Positions 433-478 of a stretch of 37,530 nt of DNA are shown in pieces (within the stretch, counting starts at the first letter, position 1; each line of letters starts with the position of its first letter). Under the pieces are notes generated by a model that was given only the letters and a program-made list of their open reading frames with translations, did no database searches and had not been told where the DNA came from. A program made the translations under genes and the position numbers. The DNA is taken from IMG/VR virus record IMGVR_UViG_2663763220_000005. One strand, given 5' to 3'. The stretch comes from a virus (lineage: Duplodnaviria; Heunggongvirae; Uroviricota; Caudoviricetes).

Positions 433-478
433 TGGTGCCGATAATAGGAGTCGAACCTACGACCTTCGCATTACGAAT
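433..478 (-). other. att core: 46 nt matching the 3' end of tRNA-Thr(CGU) (thrW-type), from the anticodon loop through the CCA end; the 5' part of the tRNA is absent
   Basis: Reverse complement reads ATTCGTAATGCGAAGGTCGTAGGTTCGACTCCTATTATCGGCACCA (anticodon loop with CGT, T-arm GGTTCGACTCC, acceptor 3' strand plus CCA); upstream sequence has no matching acceptor 5' strand. Confidence 0.75.

What the first reader, a model, noticed from the sequence alone, without database searches (positions are those of the whole stretch)
433..478. tRNA-Thr-derived att core flanked by phage DNA on both sides (attP-like configuration)
The 46-bp core matching the 3' end of tRNA-Thr(CGU) lies between the integrase 3' end and gtrA, with no complete tRNA and no bacterial DNA on either side. 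That is the arrangement of an unintegrated or circularised phage genome, or a tandem prophage junction, rather than a single prophage-chromosome junction. It also predicts thrW-type integration specificity.
Basis: partly seen in the sequence, partly recalled or inferred. Interest (0 to 1): 0.45.

Follow-up and report, generated by a model that had tools for sequence, protein, structure and literature searches.

The report
Ordinary prophage-chromosome junction at thrW
The 46-base tRNA-Thr fragment is real, but it is the normal, already described junction between an integrated SfI-like serotype-converting prophage and the Shigella flexneri chromosome. It looks like a free-phage site only because the chromosome itself carries an old, IS600-truncated integrase relic next to thrW.

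Summary
Window 433-478 is, on the minus strand, an exact copy of the last 46 nt of thrW (tRNA-Thr CGU). It lies between an integrase 3' end (stop at 416-418) and gtrA (680), and the window holds no complete tRNA.

The "integrase" is only the last 119 codons of a 386-codon gene, cut by IS600 (window 1-59). This same IS600/int-relic block is a fixed part of S. flexneri chromosomes. It precedes several different gtr clusters. In CP026799.1 it lies directly against a complete thrW and proA, with no prophage between.

A three-way alignment shows that the left arm is the S. flexneri attB flank, not the SfI attP arm (71% identity). The right arm is the SfI attP arm. That makes this a recombinant host-prophage junction (attR in the usage of Sun et al. 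2013), not attP.

A near-identical full-length prophage contig runs leftward through all of IS600 into chromosomal context, not into the 5' half of int. The window is probably a whole short-read contig that ends in repeats at both sides. The thrW integration specificity is correct and is long published.

Already known; low interest.

The parts
1..59 (+). Last 59 nt (right end) of insertion sequence IS600. It interrupts the integrase gene after nt 802.
   Evidence: 100% match to annotated IS600 copies in E. coli chromosomes. The full 1264-bp IS600 is present at this position in L020 and in complete S. flexneri chromosomes. The exact IS600/int junction 30-mer occurs in 18 fetched loci.
60..418 (+). 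Relic 3' fragment of a tyrosine integrase gene of the SfX/HK75/mEpX2 type: nt 803-1161 of 1161, i.e. codons 268-386 plus the stop. It cannot be functional.
   Evidence: 98-99% identical to the int genes of mEpX2, HK75, HK542 and SfX. Aligns to nt 803-1161 of the full-length int in L029. Covers only positions 101-170 of 172 of Pfam PF00589. Only 71% identical to the SfI-type int that sits next to thrW.
419..432 (.). Spacer between the int stop and the core. It is of the S. flexneri chromosomal type, with a diagnostic A at position 430.
   Evidence: In the alignment, all S. flexneri flanks have A at 430. SfI attP, E. coli K-12 thrW and ptwF, and the int_SfI-thrW junction all have T.
433..478 (-). 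46-nt att core, equal to the 3' part of thrW (tRNA-Thr CGU) from the anticodon loop to CCA. This is the crossover region.
   Evidence: Identical to the published attP/attL/attR core of SfI, SfII, SfV, SfX and P22 (PMC3636060).
479..679 (+). Phage-derived arm of the junction and the gtr upstream region. It includes terminator-like hairpins at 558-592.
   Evidence: 99.9% identical to SfI attP on the gtrA side. Terminator-like sites found. Homology to the thrW-adjacent flanks in L029 and L030 stops exactly at 478.
680..3482 (+). O-antigen glucosylation operon: gtrA (680-1042), gtrB (1039-1959) and gtrI (1962-3482).
   Evidence: ORFs. 99.9% identical to SfI gtrA, gtrB and gtrI. Pfam GtrA_DPMS_TM and Glycos_transf_2 on the neighbouring genes.
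3483..37530 (.). Rest of the integrated prophage. 3483-21622 holds tail, head and terminase genes, nearly identical to SfI. The closed cos region lies at about 21623-21736. 21737-24145 is the SfI-like lysis region. 24146-37530 is an early region of the SfV/SfIV/CPS-53 type (yfdP, yfdQ, yfdR, LexA-family repressor), transcribed towards xis and int, which lie beyond the window end.
   Evidence: In relatives the complete thrW lies 1902 nt beyond the window end.

Best explanation
Window 433-478 is the gtrA-side junction of an SfI-like serotype-converting prophage integrated at thrW in a Shigella flexneri chromosome. Sun et al. call this junction attR; it carries only the 3' 46 nt of the tRNA. In S. 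flexneri the DNA just downstream of thrW is not ordinary host sequence. It is the last 359 nt of an ancient integrase gene truncated by IS600.

When a phage whose attP reads int-core-gtrA recombines within the 46-nt core of thrW, two junctions form. The phage's own int ends up next to the re-formed complete thrW and proA. The gtrA end is joined, through a duplicated core, to the resident int relic. The result mimics attP (int 3' end, core, gtrA), but it is a host-phage hybrid.

Shown here: the core identity; the IS600 truncation; the identity of the left arm to the chromosomal flank that abuts thrW; the identity of the right arm to SfI attP; and the reciprocal junction in related chromosomes.

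Inferred: that beyond the right end of this particular window lie xis, int, thrW and proA; and that the window is a whole short-read contig ending in repeats.
For: (1) Three-way alignment. Left of the core, the window is identical to the flank that is followed by a complete thrW and proA in CP026799.1 (L029) and, with one mismatch, CP026803.1 (L030); ARAGORN finds the tRNA there. It differs from the SfI attP int arm, which is 71% identical over 60-478, with a diagnostic SNP at 430. Right of the core the window matches SfI attP. Homology to L029 and L030 stops exactly at 478.

(2) The reciprocal junction, SfI-type int / complete thrW / proA, exists in complete chromosomes that carry the same left block (L005, L007, L008, L014, L021-L023).

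(3) The same IS600/int junction precedes different gtr clusters: gtrI; gtrII in 2457T (AE014073.1); and, by my reading of product length and neighbours only, an SfX-like gtr and a gtrIV/V-like gtr. 18 loci share the exact 30-mer.

(4) The int fragment is nt 803-1161 of 1161 and covers only Pfam positions 101-170 of 172.

(5) L020 is a contig with full-length tail genes, 99.98% identical to window 1-9576. It continues leftward through the whole 1264-bp IS600 into the same context as chromosome CP026765.1, not into int nt 1-802.

(6) E. coli single lysogens show the expected order yagP'-core-gtrA...xis-int-thrW-proA. In relatives thrW lies 1902 nt past the window end.

(7) The window ends 59 nt into IS600 on the left. 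On the right it ends 60 nt past the last mismatch with a second genomic copy of the 119aa-101aa-xis segment. An identical IMG/VR contig ends 16 nt later.

(8) Literature. The host strain has a 'putative integrase gene', IS600 and IS629 between attB and yaiC (PMC3306764). The 46-nt core and attP, attB, attL and attR of SfI are described in PMC3636060.
Against: The right-hand junction (int-thrW-proA) of this particular prophage lies outside the window. I could not find it in a complete genome that carries the full-length version. All complete S. flexneri chromosomes retrieved hold an IS600-deleted remnant of the prophage.

A phage with an SfX/HK75-type int would have a genuine attP whose int arm is nearly identical to window 60-432. 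L029 and L026 show full-length int / core / gtrA inside chromosomes. The distinction from attP therefore rests on the IS600 breakpoint and on the L020 context, not on the int sequence alone.
Confidence: 0.9

Rival explanations
1. True attP of an unintegrated, circularised or replicating phage genome whose int gene happens to carry IS600. The window would then be a circular permutation of the phage genome broken at the IS.
For: The window is about one phage genome long. cos is closed. The gene order int 3' end / core / gtrA is the published attP order (PMC3636060). A closed circle would be about 40.3 kb, within the size range of related phages (SfII is 41.5 kb).
Against: The IS600/int breakpoint is identical to that of the chromosomal relic, which in CP026799.1 abuts thrW-proA with no prophage between. 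The near-identical contig L020 shows that the other side of IS600 is another IS plus an inverted prophage remnant, collinear with chromosome CP026765.1, and not the 5' half of int. Int/Xis excision would regenerate attP with the phage's own int arm, not with the relic. An int-null phage could not have lysogenised the strain.
Confidence: 0.02
2. Middle junction of a recent tandem double lysogen: two substantially complete thrW-integrating prophages side by side, as in the SfX+SfI serotype 1d strains.
For: Tandem SfI-SfX integration at thrW is documented (PMC3306764). L025 and L026 (KN150717.1) show a full-length SfX-type int followed by core, gtrA, gtrB and gtrII, 40 kb downstream of another core-gtr junction. 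The relic int is of SfX type (98.6%).
Against: Only 359 nt of the upstream int remain here. What lies beyond IS600 in the closest relative (L020) is another IS and an inverted xis/int remnant, not a prophage body in register. The same relic is present where no gtr prophage is attached to it (L029).
Confidence: 0.05
3. Assembly artefact: a chimeric join across the 46-nt core, which is repeated two or three times in these genomes.
For: The window looks like a short-read contig bounded by repeats. The core is present in up to three copies per locus.
Against: The same int relic / core / gtrA join is present at 99.8-99.9% identity in several complete chromosomes from independent projects, including AE014073.1, LR213452.1, CP026765.1 and CP097828.1.
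Confidence: 0.01

Closest known systems
attR junction of the SfI prophage in S. flexneri (Sun et al. 2013, PMC3636060 Fig. 3D; Adhikari et al. 1999, strain Y53)
   Same: The same 46-nt core, the same gtrA-gtrB-gtrI arm (99.9%), and the same position at the gtr end of the prophage distal from proA.
   Different: Nothing at the junction itself. The prophage behind it is a mosaic, with SfI late genes and an SfV/SfIV-like early region.
attP of the thrW-integrating serotype-converting phages SfI, SfII, SfV, SfX and P22
   Same: The order int 3' end / 46-nt core / gtrA, and an identical core. The 18 nt next to the CCA end (415-432) are almost identical.
   Different: The int arm is a 119-codon relic cut by IS600. 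It is 71% identical to the SfI int arm and belongs to the chromosome, not to the prophage on the right.
S. flexneri attB region: proA, thrW, putative int, IS600, IS629, yaiC (Sun et al. 2011, PMC3306764 Fig. 2)
   Same: Window 1-478 is this flank. It is identical to the IS600 / int relic / thrW-proA arrangement in CP026799.1 up to the end of the core.
   Different: In the window the 5' 30 nt of thrW and proA are replaced by the phage gtrA arm, which is the signature of integration.
ptwF, the thrW 3' duplicate at the far end of cryptic prophage CP4-6 in E. coli K-12
   Same: The same displaced partial-tRNA copy that marks the distal end of an element integrated in thrW.
   Different: A different element: a P4-type island whose intF is oriented the other way. 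The host flank there keeps only about 60-70 nt of integrase-like relic.

Membership tests
Phage attP (thrW-specific; SfI/SfII/SfV/SfX/P22 type) | Core identical to the 3' end of the target tRNA gene | tested here: met
   46/46 identity to thrW nt 31-76.
Phage attP (thrW-specific; SfI/SfII/SfV/SfX/P22 type) | Both arms belong to one phage genome, with the int arm continuous with that phage's complete int gene | tested here: not met
   The int arm is nt 803-1161 only, cut by IS600. It is 71% identical to the SfI int arm, while the gtrA arm is 99.9% SfI. Beyond IS600 in L020 there is no int 5' half.
Phage attP (thrW-specific; SfI/SfII/SfV/SfX/P22 type) | Located on an extrachromosomal or circular molecule, or regenerated by excision | not testable with these tools
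   Needs reads or PCR from the source. The indirect evidence (L020; complete chromosomes) points to a chromosomal location.
Prophage-chromosome junction (attL/attR) | One arm identical to the flank that abuts the complete tRNA gene where no prophage intervenes | tested here: met
   Window 1-478 is 99.8% identical to L029 9877-10354, and window 60-478 is 98.6% identical to L030. In both loci the sequence continues into the thrW 5' half and proA.
Prophage-chromosome junction (attL/attR) | The other arm identical to one arm of the phage attP, with homology switching inside the core | tested here: met
   Window 479 onward matches the SfI attP gtrA arm. The chromosomal-type SNP at 430 lies 3 nt left of the core, and homology to the thrW-adjacent flank ends at 478.
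Prophage-chromosome junction (attL/attR) | Reciprocal junction (phage int arm, complete tRNA, host) at the other end of the same prophage | tested here: inconclusive
   It lies outside the window. It is seen in related S. flexneri chromosomes (L023 16391-16839) and in E. coli single lysogens. In relatives it lies 1902 nt beyond the window end.
Tandem double-lysogen middle junction | A substantially complete second prophage ending in its int immediately upstream of the core | tested here: not met
   Only 359 nt of int remain. IS600, another IS and an inverted remnant follow in L020 and L021.

The most novel reading that the evidence does not exclude
The relic int arm, the core and the SfI gtrA arm might together form a composite, attP-like site that is still recognised by incoming Int proteins. 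In that case this junction, and the additional inverted core copies seen in some chromosomes, would take an active part in Int-mediated capture, inversion or reshuffling of serotype-converting prophages at the S. flexneri thrW locus. Rearrangements there would then not be due to IS elements alone.
Probability: 0.05. Interest if true: 0.3.

Novelty: already known. Interest (0 to 1): 0.08.

Why it matters
It matters mainly as a caution. At tRNA integration hot-spots, relics of earlier integrases can make an ordinary prophage end look like attP, a circular phage or a tandem lysogen. This risk is greatest in short-read contigs that stop at IS elements. For S. flexneri it confirms that this gtrI (serotype 1) prophage sits at the classical proA-thrW-yaiC site. 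No new biology is implied by the junction itself.

Tried and rejected
- An Rfam scan of 300-700 at E<=1 found nothing. The partial tRNA is too short to score, so this adds no information.
- I tried to see the right-hand junction of this exact prophage. A scan of IMG/VR with the last 41 nt of the window returned 120 loci, mostly E. coli relatives. The one locus identical to the window (L103) stops 16 nt past the window end.
- The GtrI and int-relic look-ups returned only IS600-deleted remnants in complete S. flexneri chromosomes, so no complete genome with the full-length version was found.
- I first thought that E. coli hits covering window 380-432 meant an int-core-gtrA order in E. coli chromosomes. 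This was rejected. The native E. coli flank downstream of thrW/ptwF simply resembles the last ~60 nt of the int gene, and those loci are ordinary yagP'-core-gtrA junctions.
- I considered arguing from int type alone (SfX/HK75-type versus SfI-type). I dropped that as decisive, because full-length int of the same type occurs next to core-gtrA in L029 and L026.
- The Adhikari et al. 1999 paper (PMC103612) is not held. What I say about it rests on its citation in PMC3636060 and on my own recollection.

Full report
**1. The observation**

Window 433-478 reads TGGTGCCGATAATAGGAGTCGAACCTACGACCTTCGCATTACGAAT. Its reverse complement equals the last 46 nt of E. coli K-12 thrW, from the anticodon loop to the CCA end. 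thrW is tRNA-Thr with anticodon cgt.

- The 46-mer occurs once in the window even with 3 mismatches allowed. None is expected by chance.
- ARAGORN finds no tRNA gene in the window.
- An integrase reading frame ends at 416-418. gtrA (680-1042), gtrB (1039-1959) and gtrI (1962-3482) follow.

**2. What the window is**

From 415 to about 21622, and again at 21737-24145, the window is 97.6-100% identical to S. flexneri phage SfI. These stretches cover gtrA, gtrB and gtrI, then tail, head and terminase genes, a closed cos, and the lysis genes.

The region 24146-37530 is not SfI. It is an early region of the SfV/SfIV/CPS-53 type, with yfdP, yfdQ, yfdR, a LexA-family repressor and O-like replication genes. 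It is transcribed towards xis and int, which lie beyond the window end. In relatives the complete thrW lies 1902 nt past the last base of the window.

**3. The left 432 nt are not this phage's integrase**

- Window 1-59 is the terminal 59 nt of IS600.
- Window 60-418 is 98-99% identical to the int genes of mEpX2, HK75, HK542 and SfX. It corresponds to nt 803-1161 of a 1161-nt gene.
- It covers only positions 101-170 of 172 of the Pfam catalytic domain.
- It is only about 71% identical to the SfI-type int.

It is therefore a dead relic of 119 codons.

**4. The relic is a fixed chromosomal feature**

Looking up GtrI and the 97-aa relic ORF in public assemblies returned complete S. flexneri chromosomes that contain window 1-4640 at 99.8-99.9% identity. 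The exact IS600/int junction 30-mer is present in 18 fetched loci.

The relic block precedes several different gtr clusters:
- gtrI.
- gtrII in 2457T, AE014073.1.
- A 421-aa gtr next to a P22-like tailspike.
- A 437-aa YfdI-like gtr.

The assignment of the last two to SfX-like and gtrIV/V-like types is my inference from product length and neighbours only.

In CP026799.1 (L029) the same IS600/relic block is followed directly by a complete thrW and proA. In CP026803.1 (L030) a longer int relic (nt 618-1161), cut by a different IS, is likewise followed directly by a complete thrW and proA. In both, no prophage lies between the relic and thrW.

In the gtrI chromosomes a second int, of SfI type, sits against the complete thrW and proA (L023 15913-16839).

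**5. Three-way alignment**

- Left of the core, the window is identical to L029, L023, L028, L025, L027 and L020, and to L030 apart from one mismatch. It differs from SfI attP, with a diagnostic A versus T at window 430, three bases from the core.
- Right of the core, the window matches SfI attP. L029 and L030 instead switch at exactly 478/479 to the 5' half of thrW.
- The junction next to proA in L023 has the SfI attP int arm on one side and the thrW 5' half on the other.

This is the pattern expected of attP x attB recombination within the core. The window holds one product and the proA-side junction is the other. E. coli single lysogens with a near-identical prophage confirm the polarity: yagP' / core / gtrA ... 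xis / int / thrW / proA.

**6. Why it is not a circular phage with IS600 in its int**

L020 is an IMG/VR contig with full-length tail genes, 99.98% identical to window 1-9576. It continues leftward through the whole 1264-bp IS600 into a second IS and an inverted 119aa-101aa-xis remnant. This stretch is collinear at 99.76% with complete chromosome CP026765.1. The 5' 802 nt of int are not there.

**7. Why the window shows no ordinary host genes**

- The left end stops 59 nt inside IS600.
- The right end stops 60 nt after the last mismatch (37470) with the second genomic copy of the 119aa-101aa-xis segment.
- A contig identical over its last 6 kb (L103) stops 16 nt later.

This is what a short-read de Bruijn contig bounded by repeats looks like. 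That reading is an inference.

**8. Literature**

Sun et al. 2013 (PMC3636060) give the same 46-nt sequence as the attP core of SfI. They state that it is identical in SfII, SfV, SfX and P22, and they show attP, attB, attL and attR.

Sun et al. 2011 (PMC3306764) draw the host region as proA, thrW (attB), 'putative integrase gene', IS600, IS629, yaiC. They also document tandem SfI-SfX integration at the attL site.

Adhikari et al. 1999 described the gtrI locus of strain Y53 with its att sites. That paper is cited in PMC3636060 but is not held in the library.

**9. Mechanism**

Established knowledge of tyrosine-recombinase integration into tRNA genes says that the phage core replaces the 3' part of the tRNA and leaves a displaced 3' copy at the far end of the prophage. 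Here the displaced copy stays attached to the resident relic. This produces int 3' end / core / gtrA by coincidence of history.

Shown: the identities of both arms, the truncation of int, and the chromosomal context in relatives. Inferred: the unseen right junction of this prophage.

**10. Verdict**

The thrW specificity is correct and known. The 'attP-like / unintegrated' reading is not supported. 'Tandem' is true only in the sense of an ancient relic. The finding is already known and of low interest.

Noticed in passing
window 24146-37530 versus 415-24145: The prophage is a mosaic. Its gtr, tail, head and lysis genes are 97.6-100% SfI. The whole early region is of SfV/SfIV/CPS-53 type (yfdP/Q/R, LexA-family repressor), not the lambda-like early region of published SfI. 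It also lacks the two tRNA genes that SfI carries downstream of Q.
   Followed up: partly
window 1-59 and 37471-37530: Both window ends run about 59-60 nt into repeats: IS600 on the left, and a second genomic copy of the 119aa-101aa-xis segment on the right. This suggests the window is an entire short-read contig assembled with k of about 61. An identical IMG/VR contig (L103) ends 16 nt later.
   Followed up: yes
L003 5256-5330 (E. coli K-12, downstream of ptwF); L001 19990-20052: The native E. coli flank immediately 3' of thrW/ptwF resembles the last ~60-70 nt of the phage int gene plus the spacer. Even in E. coli, attB appears to carry a tiny integrase relic or a conserved arm.
   Followed up: partly
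L011, L012, L013 (E. coli chromosomes CATKKQ010000001.1, CP182383.1, CP139337.1); also L006 and L009: A GtrI protein 100% identical to the S. flexneri serotype-1 enzyme is encoded by apparently intact prophages at thrW in E. coli, including one strain isolated from pork. L013 is 99.9% identical to window 364-13482.
   Followed up: partly
L029 6001-8663 (CP026799.1): A full-length SfX/HK75-type int, the core (7443-7488) and gtrA-gtrB lie in true attP order inside a chromosome. They are inverted and abut the IS600 that truncates the relic int next to thrW. The origin is unexplained; it could be an IS-mediated inversion of a tandem middle junction.
   Followed up: partly
L021 2551-7380 and L022 1288-7380 (CP026765.1, CP026871.1): A third core copy, in inverted orientation, is flanked by an SfI-type int interrupted by another IS600 and by a 390-aa acyltransferase gene that may be oac-like. 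The proA-yaiC region is an array of att cores and prophage remnants.
   Followed up: no
L006 477-8305 (CAXKGV010000001.1): A P4-like satellite, with a 404-aa integrase carrying an Arm-DNA-bind_3 domain, an AlpA protein and a D5/primase, sits immediately left of the core-gtrA junction. thrW is thus shared by at least two unrelated integrase families in tandem.
   Followed up: no
L005/L008/L021/L023 around 12680-13960 and 14517-15780, versus window 4640/4641: In all complete S. flexneri serotype-1 chromosomes retrieved, the prophage is deleted from window position 4641 (just past the tail-fibre assembly gene) into the 5' part of its int, with one IS600 at the deletion joint. The full-length form seen in the window appears only in draft contigs.
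   Followed up: partly
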